A DNA stretch of 64,000 nt from a phage, in sequence record PV636258.1; one strand, written 5' to 3'. The notes under the pieces were generated by a model. That model worked only from the letters and a program-made list of their open reading frames with translations, did no database searches and had not been told where the DNA came from. Shown here in pieces: positions 22,815 through 27,980 of this stretch; position 1 is the first letter of the stretch, and each line of letters starts with the position of its first letter. A program made the position numbers and the translations under genes.

Positions 22815-23384
22815 ATGCACATTAACACAGCAATCATGAAACACATTATTCCTTTATTGGCAAAATACGAAGGGGAACGTGCCACGAAAATCCCTTTTGG
22901 AACAATCACAGATGAAGTGAAACGCCTGACGGGTAAAAGTATCAATTTCCGTCGCGTTGTTGAATCTGCGTTAGAGTTGGCCCGTTCTGATTTACAAAAT
23001 CCAACATTTTCATTTAATATTGACGTAACTTCTTCACTTCGTCAAGAATTGGAAGAATCATCACAAGCGCGGCGCGATCGTTTCCGTCATTTATATGTTC
23101 GTAACGAATTCTCCGAAGGTCGTGTTGGTATGAAACTGGAGTCTATTCGTTCTGATATTTGCTTCACTGTCAACTATGTTTTAGAGCCAGAGAGCCAGCG
23201 CATTTATTTTGGCGCGATTATCGGTTTCTATGGGAACTCTATTAATGGTTGGGCAGAACGTGTTGGATTAAAAGAAACCCAGAACAATCATTCCACACCT
23301 TCTACCCATTATATGACGCATGAAGCTGCTGGCGAATATGTTTACCTTCTGCGTCGTGTTGTGAAGTTAGAAGTGTTAAAATAA
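22815..23384 (+). CDS. Hypothetical protein (189 aa)
   Basis: ATG-initiated ORF downstream of promoter-like element; no recognisable motif. Confidence 0.55.
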   Translation: MHINTAIMKHIIPLLAKYEGERATKIPFGTITDEVKRLTGKSINFRRVVESALELARSDLQNPTFSFNIDVTSSLRQELEESSQARRDRFRHLYVRNEFSEGRVGMKLESIRSDICFTVNYVLEPESQRIYFGAIIGFYGNSINGWAERVGLKETQNNHSTPSTHYMTHEAAGEYVYLLRRVVKLEVLK

Positions 23385-23441
23385 CGCTTTATTCAATAAA
23401 TAATTGTAGTAAAGTTAGTTGCATGGAAGGGAGGGAACACT

Positions 23442-23588
23442 ATGTTTTACATGATGTTACTCCTCATCCTCCTGATCGGGATTACCTGCTCTCTCCTGGG
23501 TCTACCCGATCAGTCCGGTAAACAGTTGCCCACTTCGGCGCATCCGGTTTTGAGTGAAGGTTCGTCCGCACTGCTGTGGGCAGTGTAG
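23442..23588 (+). CDS. Small hydrophobic peptide (48 aa), speculative
   Basis: ATG with GGAGGG SD 7 nt upstream; MFYMMLLLILLIGITCSLLGL predicted transmembrane; below the ORF-track length cutoff. Confidence 0.3.
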   Translation: MFYMMLLLILLIGITCSLLGLPDQSGKQLPTSAHPVLSEGSSALLWAV

Positions 23589-24409
23589 CTCAAAGGGGAG
23601 AGGACTTTTCAAATTAGCTGGGCTGTAGTATAGTAAATTTTATGGTGTAAAGAGTCGGGCGACCAGCGGTGTAAAGGCTGAGGCCAAGCACAGTCCTAGG
23701 ACGAGGACTCCGGCTCCATAAGTCAATATCCACCTCGCTGGTGTCAGTGGACGCACTTGACCGTCGGAGAACGAAACTCCCTGTTGTAGCGTGATTAGCT
23801 CAGAATCAGAGAGCACCCCGTTGGCAAGTCGACACCAGCATATAAGGGGAGGTCGGGGGCGCTAATCTCCATCACGCCGACAACATTATGAGTCTTCATA
23901 GAGGGTTCATAATGTTGCGTCAAAGGGCAACAAGGTTCCTGTTGGTAACATAATTATTCCTACTGTCTTCCCGGATTTTAGGAGCGCCAACAGGCGAGGC
24001 CGGATGCGTAAGTTCCGGCAAATCGATGGTGAGGTGGTGCATTGGTGACACGGGGTAGCGCCCAGAAGTGTGGTTCGATTCACACCCTCTCCAACAAAAA
24101 TAAAAGGTTTTATCAATAACGGGTTACAAAGTATAGTTAACTCACTGAACGGCAAGCTGTTTGAGTCCTGGCCACTCATAGCGATGTGAGACCAAGACAG
24201 GTAGGTTTAGGACTCAAACAGGTTTTCGTTCTCGTTGCTTGCGACTTTGCGGGTTTTTAGAAACTGACCACAAAGATAAATGCAAACGATAACACGTTCC
24301 TGGCAGTAGCTTAACAGCCATACACCAGTGAGGTCTTCCGATTCCTCATCACCAAATTCGGCGCACTAAAATAGACGGGAGGGTGTGATTAATAATCTCC
24401 CGTCGACGA

Positions 24410-24536
24410 TGCCGTTATATCTGACTGTCCAAAGGGGATAAGCTCCTGAGTAAGCAGAGGTGGGTTGCCTAAGTCAGATGGGATGTAAGGTCAGCGCTGG
24501 CCAAGCATTTGGGTTCGACTCCCTAAAACGGCTCCA
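24410..24536 (+). ncRNA. Extended tRNA-like element (about 127 nt): acceptor-like stem, T-arm-like hairpin and 3-prime CCA
   Basis: 5-prime GCCGTTA pairs 6/7 with AAACGGC placed directly after a GGG-TTCGACT-CCC T-arm; followed by T then CCA; body far too long for a canonical tRNA. Confidence 0.25.
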
Positions 24537-24623
24537 CATCTTAGAGGACATTGACAGGTGGAAGCATTTGGCGCCAAATGCTCGTGGCGGGTTCGAGTCC
24601 CGTGCAGTGTCCTCTAAGATGTG
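24535..24623. repeat. 16-bp perfect inverted repeat enclosing a tRNA-like core
   Basis: CACATCTTAGAGGACA (24535-24550) and TGTCCTCTAAGATGTG (24608-24623); interior holds 18-nt perfect palindrome GCATTTGGCGCCAAATGC and T-arm-like GCGGG-TTCGAGT-CCCGT. Confidence 0.7.
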
Positions 24624-24668
24624 AGCGAAGTCTTACCAATTGCCCTGATCTCTGGCAAGTGAAGGGCA

Positions 24669-24804
24669 ACGCAAATCGAAGTTCTCTGGGTATATCTTTT
24701 AACCCTCAAGGTCTGTACACAGAAGTGGCCGTCCCATGAGTAAGTTAGGCGATATACAACATGTTGGGTCGAACCTGTTAAGCCCAGAGAACTTCGATTT
24801 GCGT
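24669..24804. repeat. 22-bp perfect inverted repeat enclosing about 92 nt
   Basis: ACGCAAATCGAAGTTCTCTGGG (24669-24690) and its reverse complement at 24783-24804; nested 7-bp stem GTATATC/GATATAC inside. Confidence 0.7.
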
Positions 24805-25183
24805 ACTTGAGAGAGCGTTGTATGAAATAGGGCAATGCCTTGCAGACCTCGACGCCTACACATTCTAGACACTGGTGGGCGCTGGCGAAGATCTCAATAT
24901 AAGCTGGTCATCAAGGGTAGCTCCCTGACTAGACGAACAATGAGAGGCCGAACTAAGGGGAAACCCGAGACAGGCGCAGTATTTTCGAGTTCGCAAAACA
25001 GTGATCATCTGACAAGTGTGATCACTCTTCGATAGAGACATTACATCGTGGCCATCAACCACATCCTCGCTCTAGTGATGAGTGGTGTTATGTTTCTGTC
25101 GGCCAGCCTCGTTTGGTCCGAGCGATAGAGGACAAGTATTCTGTGTGACGAAGACATTGAATGCGAGTTGTAACATTTGGTTG

Positions 25184-25261
25184 CAACTTTGATGGCTCTG
25201 GATTTTATAAACCATGTCTATGGGTGACGCGGGATCTTTAGTACCAGAGCCATCAAAGTTG
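25184..25261. repeat. 18-bp perfect inverted repeat with 42-nt interior
   Basis: CAACTTTGATGGCTCTGG (25184-25201) and CCAGAGCCATCAAAGTTG (25244-25261). Confidence 0.7.
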
Positions 25262-25592
25262 TGTCCAACCCGATCTTGCAAGCCCGTATCCCTGTATGGT
25301 CAAGACTTGCAAGTGGAAAGCCCTGGAAAAATAAACGCCTGTGGTGAGGCTACGGTGCAAGCCAAAGACCCACAGAAGCGCGTTGCCGTGAGGCGCACAA
25401 ACAGGCATGCATGAACTGATCATGCACAAACGGGATAAAGGGTTGAGAGACCTTGGTTGGTCACAACATACAATTAATCCATAACGGGGAAGCAATATGA
25501 CTTGGCGACAGCGCGGATACAAAACCGTAGAATTGATTTAAAATTGCCGGCGTCCTGGTTGAGTGAGAGATCACTGCCGAAACCAGGAGGAA

Positions 25593-25618
25593 TGTGGGAG
25601 GGTAAATACCCTCCCACA
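25593..25618 (+). promoter_or_regulatory. Hairpin with TAAATA loop upstream of tRNA-Met
   Basis: TGTGGGAGGG-TAAATA-CCCTCCCACA; a second 11-bp inverted repeat CATATATGTTT/AAACATATATG (25628-25665) abuts the tRNA 5-prime end. Confidence 0.4.
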
Positions 25619-25664
25619 GACCAAGAACATATATGTTTGTGTATTTTTGTGCATAAACATATAT

Positions 25665-25741
25665 GGTCCTGTAGCTCAGTGGTAAGTAGCAGTGAACTCA
25701 TAATTCATTGGTCGTTGGTTCAAATCCAACCAGGATCACCA
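25665..25741 (+). tRNA. tRNA-Met (anticodon CAT; could also be an Ile-lysidine or initiator type)
   Basis: Hand-folded cloverleaf: acceptor GGTCCTG/CAGGATC (one G-T), anticodon stem GTGAA/TTCAT with loop CTCATAA, T-arm GTTGG-TTCAAAT-CCAAC, encoded CCA. Confidence 0.8.
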
Positions 25742-25778
25742 CTAAATAAACCAGTTGTTCAATAAACAATTGGTGAGT

Positions 25779-25979
25779 ATGATGAAAACGTTCGGTGATT
25801 TTCTTACTGAGTGGGATGGTCTAGCTACCGACAACAAAGAGATTGTTGAGTTTGTTGAAAAGCGAGGCGATAAGTGGGTTGTCCTTGACCACACCAAGAC
25901 TAAAGTTCTTGGGACACATGACACCAAAGCTGACGCCGACGCCCAATTAAGGGCGATCGAAGCGAACAAGCACGGATAA
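25779..25979 (+). CDS. Small hypothetical protein between tRNA genes (66 aa)
   Basis: ATG with GGTGAG SD; lies between tRNA-Met and tRNA-Asn. Confidence 0.4.
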   Translation: MMKTFGDFLTEWDGLATDNKEIVEFVEKRGDKWVVLDHTKTKVLGTHDTKADADAQLRAIEANKHG

Positions 25980-25980
25980 A

Positions 25981-26056
25981 GACGATGTAGTTCAGTCGGT
26001 AGAACGGCGGTCTGTTAAACCGTATGTCGCAGGTTCAAGTCCTGCCATCGTCGCCA
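25981..26056 (+). tRNA. tRNA-Asn (anticodon GTT)
   Basis: Acceptor GACGATG/CATCGTC, D-arm GTTC-AGTCGGTA-GAAC, anticodon loop CTGTTAA, T-arm GCAGG-TTCAAGT-CCTGC, encoded CCA. Confidence 0.85.
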
Positions 26057-26076
26057 AATAATAGTTGCAGGAACAC

Positions 26077-26568
26077 ATGAACACAAAACAGCGCGGGATG
26101 ATAGGTGAAACGAGGTTCCTGTTTAAATGTACAGAACTCGGGATCACAGTTTCACAACCTTTCGGAGATAATGCGCCATATGATTTTGTGATTGATGTGA
26201 ACGGTCGTTTGCTCAAGGTGCAATGTAAAACCTTGATGATGGACAAGAATACCTACCTTCTTGACGCAAGCACGACTAATTTCTACAACGGAAAATGCAA
26301 ATCCGTATACCATGGTGAGAAAGTTGATCTCTATTATGGTTACCATCCTGAAACTGGGATTGAAGTTTTGGTAGATCCGAAGCAATACCCTAAAAATTTA
26401 CGTTTGAGGGTGGAACCACCTAAAAATAATCAGGTGGTTGGGATCAAGTGGTTAAAGGATTTCCTGTTTGATAATGTTATCCAGGAAATTATGAATTATG
26501 GGTGTGAAACGAAAGCAAGTAAGCACGAAGTACGCGAACGACAAGTTCTCTCGAGCGACGTCCAATAG
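26077..26568 (+). CDS. Putative PD-(D/E)xK-family nuclease embedded in the tRNA cluster
   Basis: GETRF...PYDFVIDVNG...KVQCK pattern (E, D, D, Q-x-K) matching the restriction-endonuclease-like fold; AGGA SD before ATG at 26077. Confidence 0.45.
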   Translation: MNTKQRGMIGETRFLFKCTELGITVSQPFGDNAPYDFVIDVNGRLLKVQCKTLMMDKNTYLLDASTTNFYNGKCKSVYHGEKVDLYYGYHPETGIEVLVDPKQYPKNLRLRVEPPKNNQVVGIKWLKDFLFDNVIQEIMNYGCETKASKHEVRERQVLSSDVQ

Positions 26569-26569
26569 C

Positions 26570-27018
26570 CGAACGGAATCCGAACCCGACGAAAGTAACG
26601 CCCACCAAATTCAGAGTGTAGAGGCTACAGTAGTGCGCACCTCACGGAAAGCTACACCGGACACTCTGATACAAAATCTACCACCGCGTGGATTAGCTGA
26701 GGAAGGATGGCCGATGTCCTCAAGCGTGGCCCAGCACGTGGTGGTAGACCAAACACAGTAAGCGTTGCAGCCAGCTGTGTATAAAATGGGGTGACTCCAC
26801 ATCGGAAACGATGCCCCAACTTCCAGAAATGGTCGGGCGTGAAGCCTGTAAAGTTCCAGGAGATCAGACCAGAAGGCACTGGTCGCCTTGTTAACCAATC
26901 GACGCTTCGGCGTGGGGAGTTGGACAGGCAGATCAAATGCACAATCGGGTGTGAAGCCCGTCCATATTACGCTCGGTCAAGCAGTCTGTTTGTAGACGGT
27001 CGGTGCGGGTTTTGCAAG
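26570..27018 (+). ncRNA. Highly structured non-coding segment (candidate structured RNA)
   Basis: No RBS-supported ORF; multiple stable hairpins including UUCG loop (GACGC-TTCG-GCGTC region near 26905), GAAA loop (CATCG-GAAA-CGATG near 26795), 8-bp and 12-bp inverted repeats (26612-26669, 26689-26750). Confidence 0.35.
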
Positions 27019-27104
27019 ACTCGTTTAGGCTAACAAATGGATGAGGCGCGACTCTCTGGGTTGATCACCAGAGTGCTGGGGTTCAAATCCTCTAACGAGC
27101 ACCA
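27019..27104 (+). ncRNA. Atypical tRNA-like element (possible pseudo-tRNA or processed stable RNA)
   Basis: Clean 3-prime half: hairpin CTCTGG-GTTGATCA-CCAGAG, T-arm with TTCAAAT loop, 7-nt acceptor strand, ACCA; but 5-prime half does not give a canonical D-arm and the anticodon-like loop has 8 nt. Confidence 0.3.
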
Positions 27105-27110
27105 AACAAC

Positions 27111-27194
27111 GTGAGTGTGGCAGAGCGGTCGAATGCAGGAGACTGTAAATCTCCCCGTAACAGCGCGGTGGTTCAAATCCATCCACTCACACCA
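27111..27194 (+). tRNA. tRNA-Tyr (anticodon GTA), long variable arm
   Basis: Acceptor GTGAGTG/CACTCAC, 3-bp D-stem, anticodon stem GGAGA/TCTCC with loop CTGTAAA, long variable arm, T-arm GGTGG-TTCAAAT-CCATC, encoded CCA. Confidence 0.85.
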
Positions 27195-27270
27195 ATAAGT
27201 CGTTTCGGTCAGGTCAAGAACCCAGATTTAGGTCATGGCTTGGAAAATTCTTGACCGAAGCGCAGTATAC

Positions 27271-27359
27271 GGAAGGTTGCCCGAGAGGTTTAAGGGACTC
27301 GACTGCTAATCGAGTGGGGCTTTTAGCCCCCGAAGGTTCGAATCCTTCACCTTCCGCCA
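27271..27359 (+). tRNA. tRNA-Ser (anticodon GCT), long variable arm
   Basis: Acceptor GGAAGGT/ACCTTCC, anticodon stem CTCGA/TCGAG loop CTGCTAA, variable-arm hairpin GGGGC-TTTTA-GCCCC, T-arm GAAGG-TTCGAAT-CCTTC, encoded CCA. Confidence 0.85.
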
Positions 27360-27362
27360 AAT

Positions 27363-27448
27363 TGCTTCATAGCTCGAGTGGTAGAGCGCAGGAAAGTTTC
27401 GAGAGAACAAGGTGCCTGAGGTCACTGGTTCGAATCCAGTTGAAGCAA
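27363..27448 (+). ncRNA. tRNA-like gene with canonical acceptor, D and T arms but a 22-nt anticodon-region loop
   Basis: Acceptor TGCTTCA/TGAAGCA, D-arm GCTC-GAGTGGTA-GAGC, T-arm ACTGG-TTCGAAT-CCAGT all perfect; anticodon arm is a 4-bp stem CAGG/CCTG around 22 nt; no encoded CCA. Confidence 0.4.
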
Positions 27449-27458
27449 TCAGAATAAT

Positions 27459-27613
27459 GAGTGTGACTTCCTGAAGATGAAGAAGGTGTGCATGCCGACT
27501 TCATAACAATCTGGGGTTAAGGAAGTTAAGAAAGTCGCAGGATATGCAAGTGAAATGCAAATAGCTTTCAACGTCCTGACGATTTCGGGTTCGATTCCCG
27601 ACGCACTCTCCCA
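27459..27613 (+). ncRNA. Candidate stable RNA with tRNA-like ends (about 150 nt)
   Basis: GAGTGTG at 27459-27465 pairs (one G-T) with CGCACTC placed directly after T-arm TCGGG-TTCGATT-CCCGA; followed by T and CCCA; lies between the last tRNA-like gene and the terminator at 27674. Confidence 0.25.
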
Positions 27614-27673
27614 AACGCCTAATACCAGAAATTGCTGTGAGTAGTCTTTCCATCCCCACGATGGTTTAACCAT

Positions 27674-27704
27674 AGCCCGATCAGGAAGATCGGGCTTCTT
27701 TTTG
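27674..27704 (+). terminator. Intrinsic terminator closing the tRNA/stable-RNA cluster
   Basis: AGCCCGATC-AGGAA-GATCGGGCT hairpin followed by TCTTTTTG. Confidence 0.7.
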
Positions 27705-27743
27705 TCTATAATAAATAGATCTGACTTGTAAAGGAGGTCTATT

Positions 27744-27980
27744 ATGGCAACTGCTAAGATCATACCAAACGCAAGTACATGGACACAAGTCTCAGACGGA
27801 ACATCTTTGAAAACTCTTCAAGTGACTCACGGTTCTGTGTATTTAACCGATAACCCAACTGCGCCAGCCGCCAACGCCCCTGCGCATATCATTCTACAAG
27901 GAAATATCATTGTCTTGACTCCTCCTACAGTTGGATGGATAAAGAGCGCTAGTGGTGTTCCTGTTGTGATATTATCATAA
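27744..27980 (+). CDS. Small hypothetical protein (78 aa)
   Basis: ATG with strong AAGGAGG SD. Confidence 0.5.
   Translation: MATAKIIPNASTWTQVSDGTSLKTLQVTHGSVYLTDNPTAPAANAPAHIILQGNIIVLTPPTVGWIKSASGVPVVILS

What the first reader, a model, noticed from the sequence alone, without database searches (positions are those of the whole stretch)
26570..27018. About 450 nt of tetraloop-rich structured sequence downstream of the nuclease gene
The segment has overlapping short ORFs on both strands but none with a ribosome-binding site. It contains a UUCG-loop hairpin, a GAAA-loop hairpin, an 8-bp inverted repeat (CAGAGTGT / ACACTCTG) and a 12-bp imperfect inverted repeat (CTACCACCGCGTG / CACGTGGTGGTAG). 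GNRA and UUCG tetraloops clustered like this are typical of ribozymes and other folded RNAs. It directly follows a PD-(D/E)xK nuclease-like gene, which is the arrangement seen when an endonuclease gene travels with a structured RNA, but I could not identify split exons.
Basis: partly seen in the sequence, partly recalled or inferred. Interest (0 to 1): 0.55.

Follow-up and report, generated by a model that had tools for sequence, protein, structure and literature searches.

The report
Small structured RNAs in phage tRNA cluster
The flagged stretch is not an intron or ribozyme but a chain of small, independently folding RNA modules inside the tRNA gene cluster of a Vi01-like Salmonella phage, next to a separately inserted homing-endonuclease gene; two of the modules are undescribed RNA motifs shared with unrelated phage families.

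Summary
The window is a Kuttervirus (Vi01-like, Ackermannviridae) genome. The finding lies in a 4.3-kb ORF-poor tRNA cluster (23400-27700) that ends at a + strand terminator. The named hairpins and inverted repeats exist, and the overlapping ORFs are not conserved. The tetraloop count alone is not above chance.

Comparison with relatives shows a chain of separate modules whose presence and order differ between phages:
- M0 26500-26608
- M1 26612-26668
- M2 26677-26751
- M3 26753-26972
- M4 26973-27108

M1 and M2 show strong compensatory covariation. M1 also occurs in T5-like and SP-058-like phages. M2 also occurs in N4-like phages. Neither matches an Rfam family.

M0, M2 and M4 end in a stem followed by NCCA, like tRNAs. 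The M1 loop carries a 6-8-nt palindrome that changes sequence but stays palindromic, which suggests RNA-RNA dimerisation.

The nuclease resembles I-Ssp6803I. It is a rare 434-bp free-standing insertion between tRNA-Asn and M0. About 340 phage records have the RNA block and only nine have the nuclease. No group I or II intron, ribozyme or split exon was found.

The closest analogue is the T4 tRNA cluster, with segB plus the stable RNAs rnaC and rnaD. Function is unknown and interest is moderate.

The parts
26064..26497 (+). Inserted free-standing homing-endonuclease gene. The ORF spans 26065-26568 and resembles I-Ssp6803I (PD-(D/E)xK). Its last 23 codons and stop codon lie in the ancestral M0 sequence.
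   Evidence: Pfam PF11645 E = 7.8e-25. PDB 2OST E = 5.7e-8. Absent in allotria, where tRNA-Asn joins 26498 directly. Found in only 9 Ackermannviridae records.
26500..26608 (+). M0: RNA of about 109 nt. It has a 6-7-bp terminal stem (GGGUGU / ACGCCC) followed by A-CCA, like a tRNA acceptor end, and a variable central hairpin. It has no T-arm and no cloverleaf.
   Evidence: Alignment of 16 variants. The terminal stem is kept, with G.U to A-U and U-A to U.G changes. It is not thermodynamically distinctive: z = +0.3.
26612..26668 (+). M1: 57-nt three-way junction.
- P1: 26612-26618 / 26662-26668.
- P2: 26621-26624 / 26640-26643, closing a 15-nt loop made of CUACAGUAG plus the palindrome UGCGCA (26634-26639).
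- P3: 26645-26647 / 26657-26659, closing a loop that contains GCUACA.
   Evidence: Across 21 sequences, 98% of cells pair and 11 of 17 pairs show compensatory change. 0 of 500 shuffles reach the observed covariation score. Copies occur in T5-like, SP-058-like and environmental phage contigs.
26677..26751 (+). M2: 75-nt RNA. A 14-bp terminal stem (26677-26690 / 26735-26748) is followed by CCA (26749-26751). It encloses a nearly invariant 44-nt core with an inner hairpin GAGGA / UCCUC (26699-26703 / 26717-26721).
   Evidence: 13 of 24 pairs are compensatory, 98% of cells pair, and 0 of 500 shuffles reach the covariation score. The same core sits inside unrelated, longer stems in N4-like Gamaleyavirus phages.
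26753..26972 (+). M3: a run of local hairpins.
- 26753-26780.
- 26787-26818, which includes the GAAA hairpin 26800-26813.
- 26834-26848, GUGAA pentaloop.
- 26867-26884.
- 26902-26913, UUCG.
- 26946-26960, GUGAA pentaloop.
   Evidence: 98% of cells pair, but only 5 of 39 pairs show compensatory change because the sequences are too similar. The loop at 26902-26913 alternates between UNCG and GNRA tetraloops in relatives. The Dickeya phage LIMEstone1 lacks 26784-26865 and 26890-26923.
26973..27108 (+). M4: a hairpin region followed by a tRNA-like element at 27018-27105. The element has a T-arm-like GGGGUUCAAAUCCUC, an acceptor-like stem with a mismatch, and CCA at 27102-27104. It is not a recognisable tRNA.
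   Evidence: T-arm repeat family D1. Not called by ARAGORN or by the Rfam tRNA model. The acceptor pairing is poorly kept in relatives.
25981..26056 (+). tRNA-Asn(GUU): an intact upstream neighbour on the same strand.
   Evidence: ARAGORN. Rfam tRNA model, 75.8 bits.
27111..27194 (+). tRNA-Tyr(GUA): downstream neighbour. In other phages the same gene sits between M2 and M3.
27674..27705 (+). Intrinsic terminator-like hairpin with a T-run that closes the + strand tRNA/RNA cluster.
   Evidence: 9-bp stem with 6 G-C pairs, followed by TCTTTTTGTC.

Best explanation
The stretch 26500-27108 is part of the + strand tRNA operon of a Kuttervirus phage. It encodes a string of small, independently folding, non-tRNA RNAs (M0-M4).

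Inferred steps:
- The modules are co-transcribed with the tRNAs.
- The host tRNA-maturation machinery cuts them out: RNase P at the 5' side of acceptor-like stems, and 3' trimming back to an encoded CCA. This would resemble the stable 'species 1 and 2' RNAs (rnaC, rnaD) of the phage T4 tRNA cluster.

Shown: each module behaves as a cassette that is gained, lost and reshuffled together with tRNA genes. Every junction carries a short CCAAA(U) or ACAAA(U) sequence. I infer that these junctions mediate the reshuffling.

M1 and M2 are conserved RNA motifs with sequence-specific loops held by freely varying stems, so I infer that they act as RNAs that bind a partner. The palindromic loop of M1 most likely makes M1 pair with a second M1 molecule in a kissing-loop dimer.

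The I-Ssp6803I-like nuclease gene is an unrelated, free-standing homing-endonuclease insertion between tRNA-Asn and M0. This is comparable to segB in the T4 tRNA cluster. The biological role of the RNAs is not known. My best guess is a trans-acting role in the contest between phage and host over tRNAs.
For: Identity and context:
- The window is 98% identical to Salmonella phage PM10, a Kuttervirus.
- Four tRNAs plus one tRNA-like gene lie on the + strand.
- GC is raised across the ORF-poor 23400-27700, and a terminator sits at 27674.

Modularity:
- allotria: tRNA-Asn | M0-M3 | tRNA-Ile.
- MK-13: tRNA-Tyr between M2 and M3.
- Klebsiella phages: order M0-M2-X-M1-M3, or M0-X-M1-M3.
- Vi01 lacks M0.
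- LIMEstone1 lacks parts of M3.

Structure:
- M2: 13 of 24 pairs compensatory.
- M1: 11 of 17 pairs compensatory, including P1, P2 and the palindrome.
- M3: tetraloop swapping between UNCG and GNRA.

Strand:
- In M2, 17 cells are G.U against 6 that are A.C or C.A.
- M3 has invariant G.U pairs.
- The + strand folds better than the - strand.

tRNA-like ends:
- M0 ends ...ACGCCC-A-CCA.
- M2 ends ...GGUAG-A-CCA.
- M4 ends ...GAGC-A-CCA.
- Each is followed by AAU or AAC, as at the true tRNAs.
- The T4 cluster has the same CCAAAU junctions and the arrangement tRNA-Arg, rnaD, rnaC, with segB adjacent.

Spread across phage families:
- M1 lies directly 3' of tRNA-Lys(CUU) in T5-like phages and between tRNAs in SP-058-like phages.
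- M2 lies downstream of tRNAs in N4-like Gamaleyavirus contigs.

Not coding.

Nuclease sporadic.
Against: - No expression or processing data were available. Co-transcription, RNase P cleavage and stability are all inferred.
- M1 and M3 lack a CCA end.
- M0, part of M3 and the 5' part of M4 are not more stable than shuffled sequence.
- M3 shows little covariation.
- There is no sequence homology to T4 rnaC or rnaD. Only T-arm-like matches of 15-18 nt appear, at E of 0.04 or worse. The T4 comparison is therefore an analogy, not a family relationship.
- Several distant M1-core copies sit in loci with no tRNA, so the link to tRNA clusters is not universal.
- Dimerisation of M1 rests on about five palindrome variants only.
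Confidence: 0.7

Rival explanations
1. Inert leftovers: the modules are decaying remnants of former tRNA genes and spacers in a fast-changing tRNA cluster, with no function of their own.
For: - The cluster is highly fluid: modules and tRNAs come and go.
- M4 keeps a T-arm and a CCA but has a poorly conserved acceptor stem.
- M0 keeps only an acceptor-like stem and CCA, and is not thermodynamically distinctive.
- Other tRNA-like relics occur nearby at 24491-24612 and 27362-27450.
Against: - M1 and M2 keep their stems through many double changes while their loops stay nearly invariant. This holds even across different phage families. That is the signature of purifying selection on a folded RNA.
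- Neither has a cloverleaf or a T-loop.
- The M3 hairpin at 26902-26913 exchanges one stable tetraloop type for another.
Confidence: 0.12
2. Cis-acting punctuation: the hairpins are not products in their own right. They guide or protect processing of the polycistronic tRNA precursor, for example as RNase E or RNase P entry sites or as 3' exonuclease blocks.
For: - They lie on the same strand as the tRNAs and are interleaved with them.
- They have CCA-like ends and A-rich junctions.
- Many M3 elements are simple stable hairpins with interchangeable tetraloops.
Against: - The strictly conserved loop sequences of M1 (CUACAGUAG, GCUACA) and the 44-nt core of M2 are far more specific than a generic processing hairpin needs.
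- Some M1-core copies occur in loci with no tRNA.
Confidence: 0.12
3. Group I or group II intron, or another ribozyme, mobilised by the adjacent endonuclease.
For: - The nuclease belongs to the family whose solved structure is 2OST. From my own knowledge this is I-Ssp6803I, which is encoded in a tRNA group I intron.
- The region is structured.
Against: - No intron or ribozyme model reaches E of 10 or better.
- The flanking tRNA-Asn is intact.
- The RNA block exists without the nuclease in about 97% of related records.
- The nuclease insertion is 434 bp, which is essentially the ORF alone.
- The block breaks into independently assorting pieces.
- ARAGORN finds 'tRNA with a long intron' only at relaxed thresholds. 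Those calls have mismatched stems, contradict each other on the two strands, and one uses sequence inside the inserted ORF.
Confidence: 0.02
4. DNA-level elements: small palindromic mobile elements, homing-endonuclease target sites or protein-binding palindromes, rather than RNAs.
For: - The modules show cassette-like gain, loss and transposition.
- Each module has terminal inverted repeats.
- The M1 palindrome could equally be a site in double-stranded DNA.
Against: - The stems vary freely while the interiors are conserved. This is the opposite of what is expected for inverted repeats recognised by a transposase.
- G.U pairs outnumber A.C pairs, which favours + strand RNA.
- Orientation always matches that of the neighbouring tRNAs.
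- The palindrome changes sequence (UGCGCA, GUGCAC, UGAUCA, AGCGCU), which does not fit one sequence-specific DNA-binding protein.
Confidence: 0.04

Closest known systems
Phage T4 stable RNAs rnaC and rnaD ('species 1 and 2' RNAs), in the T4 tRNA cluster next to the homing-endonuclease gene segB
   Same: - Non-tRNA small RNAs of about 120-140 nt are encoded on the tRNA strand, directly after a tRNA.
- The junctions are of the CCAAAU type.
- A free-standing homing-endonuclease gene is inserted between genes of the same cluster (SegB paper PMC2330249, listed).
- Function is unknown in both cases.
   Different: - No sequence or covariance-model similarity was found.
- Here there are at least five shorter modules.
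- Two of them are shared across phage families.
- The endonuclease is PD-(D/E)xK, not GIY-YIG.
I-Ssp6803I and the group I intron of cyanobacterial tRNA-fMet
   Same: The nuclease belongs to the same family: PF11645, with its best PDB match 2OST. It also sits in a tRNA gene context.
   Different: There is no intron here. The gene is free-standing between tRNA-Asn and M0, no tRNA is split, and no group I model matches.
   Same: An M1 hairpin loop carries a 6-8-nt self-complementary sequence that is replaced by other self-complementary sequences in relatives. A second pair of loops could pair with each other (GUAG with CUAC).
   Different: No homology. Dimerisation has not been tested. M1 lies in a tRNA cluster of large tailed phages, which are not known to need a packaging RNA.
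tRNA and tRNA-like RNAs: the tRNA-like domain of tmRNA, bacterial Y-RNA-like YrlA, and acceptor/T-arm minihelices (from my own knowledge)
   Same: M0, M2 and M4 end in a terminal helix followed by N-CCA. The 14-bp stem of M2 is about as long as the stacked acceptor and T helices of a tRNA.
   Different: There is no cloverleaf. M0 to M3 have no T-loop. The Rfam tRNA, tmRNA and other models do not match.

Membership tests
Group I intron | Conserved P3-P9 catalytic core, detectable with the Rfam group I model | tested here: not met
   A permissive cmscan (E up to 10) of 23300-27800 lists no intron family. None appears at gathering threshold over the whole window either.
Group I intron | Interrupts a host gene, leaving two exon halves (for example a tRNA split in the anticodon loop) | tested here: not met
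   tRNA-Asn upstream and tRNA-Tyr downstream are complete. Split-tRNA calls appear only at 70-80% ARAGORN thresholds, have mismatched stems, and contradict each other on the two strands.
Group I intron | The endonuclease ORF is embedded in, and inherited together with, the intron RNA | tested here: not met
   The ORF is a 434-bp insertion on its own. The RNA block is found in about 339 records and the nuclease in 9 Ackermannviridae records.
Group II intron | Domain V/VI RNA and, usually, a reverse-transcriptase ORF | tested here: not met
   No Rfam match. There is no ORF of suitable size. The 'reverse transcriptase' label in record OM681507 sits on a 114-bp ORF elsewhere in the cluster.
Free-standing phage homing endonuclease (T4 Seg type) | Belongs to a known homing-endonuclease protein family | tested here: met
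   PF11645 E = 7.8e-25. PDB 2OST E = 5.7e-8, with the D...QxK region aligned.
Free-standing phage homing endonuclease (T4 Seg type) | Sporadic presence among close relatives, at a precise insertion point between conserved genes and without an intron | tested here: met
   It is present in 9 Ackermannviridae records only. The empty site is seen in allotria and many other relatives.
Free-standing phage homing endonuclease (T4 Seg type) | Cuts the empty allele and is copied into it | not testable with these tools
   This needs a cleavage assay and co-infection crosses.
tRNA | Cloverleaf with D, anticodon and T arms, recognised by ARAGORN or the Rfam tRNA model | tested here: not met
   Nothing within 26500-27108 is called at default settings. 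M4 has only a T-arm, a flawed acceptor stem and CCA.
T4-type tRNA-cluster stable RNAs (rnaC, rnaD) | Encoded within a phage tRNA cluster, on the tRNA strand, with tRNA-like junctions | tested here: met
T4-type tRNA-cluster stable RNAs (rnaC, rnaD) | Sequence or structure homology to rnaC or rnaD | tested here: not met
   BLAST finds only T-arm-like matches of 15-18 nt, at E of 0.04 or worse. The M1 and M2 covariance models do not hit the T4 locus L030.
T4-type tRNA-cluster stable RNAs (rnaC, rnaD) | Accumulate as discrete, processed, stable RNAs during infection | not testable with these tools
   No transcriptome data for Kuttervirus were found.
Kissing-loop self-dimerising RNA | Self-complementary sequence exposed in a hairpin loop | tested here: met
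   UGCGCA at 26634-26639 lies in the 15-nt loop closed by P2. The predicted self-duplex energy is -7 to -16 kcal/mol across variants.
Kissing-loop self-dimerising RNA | Self-complementarity preserved through sequence change | tested here: met
   All 3 palindrome pairs covary and 100% of cells are complementary. The variants are UGCGCA, GUGCAC, UGAUCA and AGCGCU, plus UGCGCGCA in L011.
Kissing-loop self-dimerising RNA | Dimer formation in solution | not testable with these tools
   This needs native gels or SEC-MALS with mutant and compensatory loops.

The most novel reading that the evidence does not exclude
M1 and M2 are two undescribed RNA families, absent from Rfam 15. They spread horizontally as cassettes between the tRNA clusters of unrelated phage families: Ackermannviridae, T5-like Demerecviridae, SP-058-like phages and N4-like Schitoviridae. 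The M1 core also occurs in environmental phage contigs. M1 would be a self-associating RNA whose palindromic loop forms kissing dimers or higher assemblies. Together they would act in trans on a shared bacterial target in the conflict over tRNAs.
Probability: 0.3. Interest if true: 0.65.

Novelty: new member of a known kind. Interest (0 to 1): 0.4.

Why it matters
Phage tRNA clusters are now seen as weapons against host defences that cut or deplete tRNAs. Annotation, however, records only the canonical tRNAs. None of the GenBank records inspected annotates any RNA feature in this block. It lies within a 4.3-kb tRNA cluster region that is conserved in more than 300 sequenced phages, many of them candidates for therapy or biocontrol.

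This work shows that the 'empty' DNA holds folded RNAs under selection. Two of them are shared across phage families. That gives concrete, short (57-nt and 75-nt) targets for experiments on what non-tRNA RNAs in these clusters do, a question open since the T4 species 1 and 2 RNAs were sequenced in the 1970s.

It also corrects a tempting misreading (endonuclease plus structured RNA equals intron). It documents an I-Ssp6803I-type enzyme acting as a free-standing element.

Tried and rejected
- Rfam at gathering threshold and at E up to 10 gave only tRNAs and noise. The noise included microRNA and plastid-UTR models that overlap tRNAs, and weak tmRNA fragments outside the finding.
- A search of all complete E. 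coli genomes for a host original of the RNAs found no match.
- Homology to T4 rnaC and rnaD was tested by BLAST and by the two covariance models. None was found.
- ARAGORN with intron search and relaxed thresholds produced 'tRNA-Ile with a 449-nt intron' on the + strand and 'tRNA-Gln with a 265-nt intron' on the - strand over the finding. I rejected both. Their stems are mismatched, the two calls exclude each other, one uses sequence inside the inserted nuclease ORF, and both are incompatible with the module shuffling.
- The single metagenome scan, with a loosened M1 pattern, returned more than 120 loci. Almost all were chance matches or protein-coding repeats. Only L090, L110/L129, L149 and L159 scored with the M1 model.
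- The neighbourhoods of distant M1-core copies showed no recurring protein partner.
- Literature searches on T5 and T4 tRNA clusters, Ackermannviridae non-coding RNA and Kuttervirus transcriptomes found the SegB paper and a general catalogue of candidate viral structured RNAs (PMC10690425). Nothing describes these modules.
- RNAalifold predicted long-range pairings inside M3 (for example columns 83-91 with 213-221). They have no covariation support, and they are incompatible with the internal deletions seen in LIMEstone1. I did not adopt them.
Full report
WHAT THE WINDOW IS. The 4.5 kb around the finding is 98% identical to Salmonella phage vB-SalM-PM10 and matches 366 phage records. Nearly all are Ackermannviridae (Kuttervirus, Agtrevirus, Limestonevirus, Taipeivirus) that infect Salmonella, Escherichia, Klebsiella, Shigella and Dickeya. 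The finding lies in a stretch (about 23400-27700) that differs from the rest of the genome:
- It has almost no credible ORFs.
- Its GC content is near 0.50, against about 0.42 on either side.
- It carries four + strand tRNA genes: Met 25665, Asn 25981, Tyr 27111 and Ser 27271.
- It carries one more tRNA-like gene with an oversized anticodon loop, at 27363-27448.
- It ends at a strong + strand terminator-like hairpin at 27674-27705.
The GenBank records inspected annotate only the tRNAs and two or three small ORFs here.

CHECK OF THE OBSERVATION.
- As + strand RNA the region folds better than all 100 shuffles (z = -3.0). The - strand is unremarkable (z = -1.6).
- The tetraloop argument alone is weak. 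Two such hairpins are reached by 87 of 1000 shuffles and by 9% of equal-sized windows in the same 64 kb.
- The four overlapping ORFs have no Pfam or PHROG family, whereas the nuclease and the small gene at 25755-25979 do.
- All four ORFs are truncated by stops or frameshifts in relatives that are 88-99% identical.
- The M3 alignment contains several 1-2-nt indels.
The region is therefore non-coding.

THE NUCLEASE IS A SEPARATE, RARE INSERTION. The ORF at 26065-26568 matches Pfam PDDEXK_5 (E = 7.8e-25). Its only solved relative is 2OST. I recognise 2OST as I-Ssp6803I, the homing endonuclease of a cyanobacterial tRNA-fMet group I intron.
- In phage allotria, tRNA-Asn is joined directly to window position 26498. 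The same junction is seen in many other relatives.
- The insertion is therefore 26064-26497, which is 434 bp and hardly more than the ORF itself.
- The ORF borrows its last 23 codons and its stop codon from the pre-existing downstream sequence.
- Only nine Ackermannviridae records encode this protein, while about 339 records carry the RNA block.
- No group I intron, group II intron or ribozyme model matches, even at E = 10, and no tRNA is split.
- Intron-containing tRNA calls appear only at relaxed ARAGORN thresholds and are artefacts.
The gene behaves like a free-standing homing endonuclease, as segB does in the T4 tRNA cluster (PMC2330249, listed).

THE 'STRUCTURED SEGMENT' IS A CHAIN OF CASSETTES. 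Pairwise comparison with 30 related loci shows sharp, recurring breakpoints. They define M0 (26500-26608), M1 (26612-26668), M2 (26677-26751), M3 (26753-26972) and M4 (26973-27108). Examples:
- Shigella phage MK-13 has tRNA-Tyr between M2 and M3, and tRNA-Ile between M3 and M4.
- allotria replaces M4 and tRNA-Tyr with tRNA-Ile.
- Klebsiella phages have the order M0-M2-X-M1-M3, or M0-X-M1-M3 with no M2.
- Vi01 lacks M0 and most of M3.
- Dickeya phage LIMEstone1 lacks 26784-26865 and 26890-26923, both inside M3.
Every junction carries the same short motif, (C/A)CAAA(U/C), which is also what follows the CCA of the true tRNAs. A single ribozyme or intron could not tolerate this variation. A set of independent genes can.

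M2 IS A FOLDED RNA UNDER SELECTION. In 16 distinct copies the 14-bp terminal stem shows compensatory change at 12 of its 14 pairs. Examples are CUACCACCGCGUG/CACGUGGUGGUAG, CUGCCGCUGCGUG/CACGCAGCGGCAG and UGGAACCCGGUU/AACCGGGUUCCG. The 44-nt interior is almost invariant.
- 98% of cells pair. No shuffle and no slid register approaches the observed covariation.
- The same interior occurs in three N4-like Gamaleyavirus contigs. There it sits inside a quite different stem of about 20 bp and has a compensatory A-U to U-A change in the inner hairpin.
- In Ackermannviridae the stem is followed by A-CCA.

M1 IS A THREE-WAY JUNCTION WITH A PALINDROMIC LOOP. Its copies occur as follows:
- in Ackermannviridae;
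- directly 3' of tRNA-Lys(CUU) in T5-like phages;
- between tRNA-Ser and tRNA-Met in SP-058-like phages;
- as a core only, in several environmental phage contigs.
Across 21 sequences, P1 (4 of 7 pairs) and P2 (4 of 4 pairs) covary. The P2 loop is CUACAGUAG followed by a 6-nt palindrome. The palindrome differs between lineages (UGCGCA, GUGCAC, UGAUCA, AGCGCU, and UGCGCGCA in L011) but is always a palindrome. All three position pairs change on both sides and 100% of cells are complementary.

A loopless 6-mer cannot fold on itself, so the simplest reading is pairing between two M1 molecules. Predicted self-duplex energies are -7 to -16 kcal/mol. The second loop carries GCUACA, which is complementary to the GUAG of the first loop. 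Both are invariant, so that contact cannot be tested by covariation.

M0, M3 AND M4 ARE LESS CERTAIN.
- M0 has a conserved acceptor-like stem with one-sided G.U to A-U changes and an A-CCA tail, but is otherwise not distinctive.
- M3 is a row of local hairpins. 98% of cells pair, but only 5 of 39 pairs show double changes because the sequences are so similar.
- The clearest signal in M3 is the hairpin at 26902-26913. Its loop alternates among UUCG, UACG, UGCG, GAUA, GAGA and GUGA.
- M4 carries a T-arm, a flawed acceptor stem and CCA, and may be a degenerate tRNA.

WHICH STRAND. Orientation always agrees with the neighbouring tRNAs. G.U pairs, which would be A.C on the other strand, outnumber A.C pairs by 17 to 6 cells in M2. 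They are invariant at several M3 positions.

HOW IT MOST LIKELY WORKS.
Shown:
- the sequence is non-coding;
- M1 and M2 have structure on the + strand that is maintained by selection;
- the modules behave as independent cassettes;
- M0, M2 and M4 have tRNA-like termini;
- the nuclease is independent of the RNA block.
Inferred:
- the modules are co-transcribed with the tRNAs;
- they are released by the tRNA-processing enzymes and persist as small stable RNAs, by analogy with T4 rnaC and rnaD, which share the layout and the CCAAAU junctions but not the sequence;
- M1 dimerises;
- M1 and M2 act in trans on a partner common to the hosts of unrelated phages.

WHAT IS NOT KNOWN.
- No host copy exists in E. 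coli genomes, so the RNAs are not mimics copied from the host chromosome.
- No recurrent protein neighbour was found.
- No paper describing these RNAs was found.

VERDICT. This is a new set of members of an old and still unexplained class: non-tRNA structured RNAs in phage tRNA clusters. Two of them, M1 and M2, are well supported and shared across phage families. M1 has an unusual palindromic loop. Interest is moderate.

Noticed in passing
window 27362-27450 (+): A good cloverleaf with 7-8-bp acceptor, D and T arms, but a 22-nt anticodon loop. Rfam tRNA model: 48.7 bits. ARAGORN with intron search calls it tRNA-Pro(AGG) with a 15-nt 'intron'. The PM10 record labels it tRNA-OTHER. It ends in UCA, not CCA.
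   Followed up: partly
window 23400-25660: 2.2 kb upstream of tRNA-Met with no credible ORF and GC near 0.5. It contains long, near-perfect inverted repeats: 24669-24690/24783-24804 (22 nt, 100%), 25177-25201/25244-25268, 24147-24169/24209-24231 and 24535-24553/24605-24623. It has T-arm-like motifs at 24510 and 24588. ARAGORN calls tRNA-Val(GAC) with a 31-nt insert at 24491-24612. This is probably more unannotated RNAs of the same cluster.
   Followed up: no
window 26834-26848 and 26946-26960 (+): Two copies, 112 nt apart, of a 5-bp G+C-rich hairpin with a G-N-R-A-A pentaloop (GUGAA here; GCGAA, GCAAA and GAGAA in relatives). The stem and loop layout resembles the boxB hairpins bound by lambdoid N proteins; that resemblance is from my own knowledge.
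   Followed up: partly
window 26498-26568: The inserted nuclease ORF has no stop codon of its own. It reads 23 codons into the ancestral M0 RNA sequence, so protein-coding and RNA-coding sequence overlap on the same strand. Consistent with a tail acquired from the flank, one homologue (Klebsiella phage FKP10) aligns only to residue 143.
   Followed up: partly
window 27196-27270 (+): A long hairpin between tRNA-Tyr and tRNA-Ser, with the strongest fold signal of the cluster: -25.6 kcal/mol, z = -4.8, 0 of 200 shuffles as good.
   Followed up: no
L003:663-802 (Salmonella phage BD13) and T5-like relatives: The roughly 140 nt after M1 in T5-like phages is another conserved, unannotated module with a T-arm-like GCAGGUUCAAGUCCUGC. 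It is present in hundreds of T5-like records whether or not M1 is present, so T5-like tRNA clusters show the same cassette behaviour.
   Followed up: partly
L004:733-811 (phage allotria), M2: The M2 of allotria combines the 5' stem arm of one allele (CUACCACC...) with the 3' arm of another (...GCAGCGGCAG). This gives three A.C mismatches. It looks like a recent recombinant inside the stem.
   Followed up: no
L029:732-2600 (Escherichia phage PhAPEC5): The N4-like phage that carries an M2 copy also has about 1.9 kb that is largely ORF-free, with several T-arm-like motifs (for example GGUUCGAGUCC, GGUUCGAAUCC, GGUUCAAUUCC, GGUUCGAUUCC). Only one tRNA is annotated there. This may be another cluster of tRNA-like RNAs.
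   Followed up: no
L002 (OM681507.1, phage SM5) 1499-1615 and 2793-2906: Two ORFs of 114-117 bp on the - strand of the ORF-poor stretch are annotated 'helicase RecD/TraA family' and 'reverse transcriptase domain-containing protein'. They are far too short for such proteins and are almost certainly annotation artefacts.
   Followed up: no
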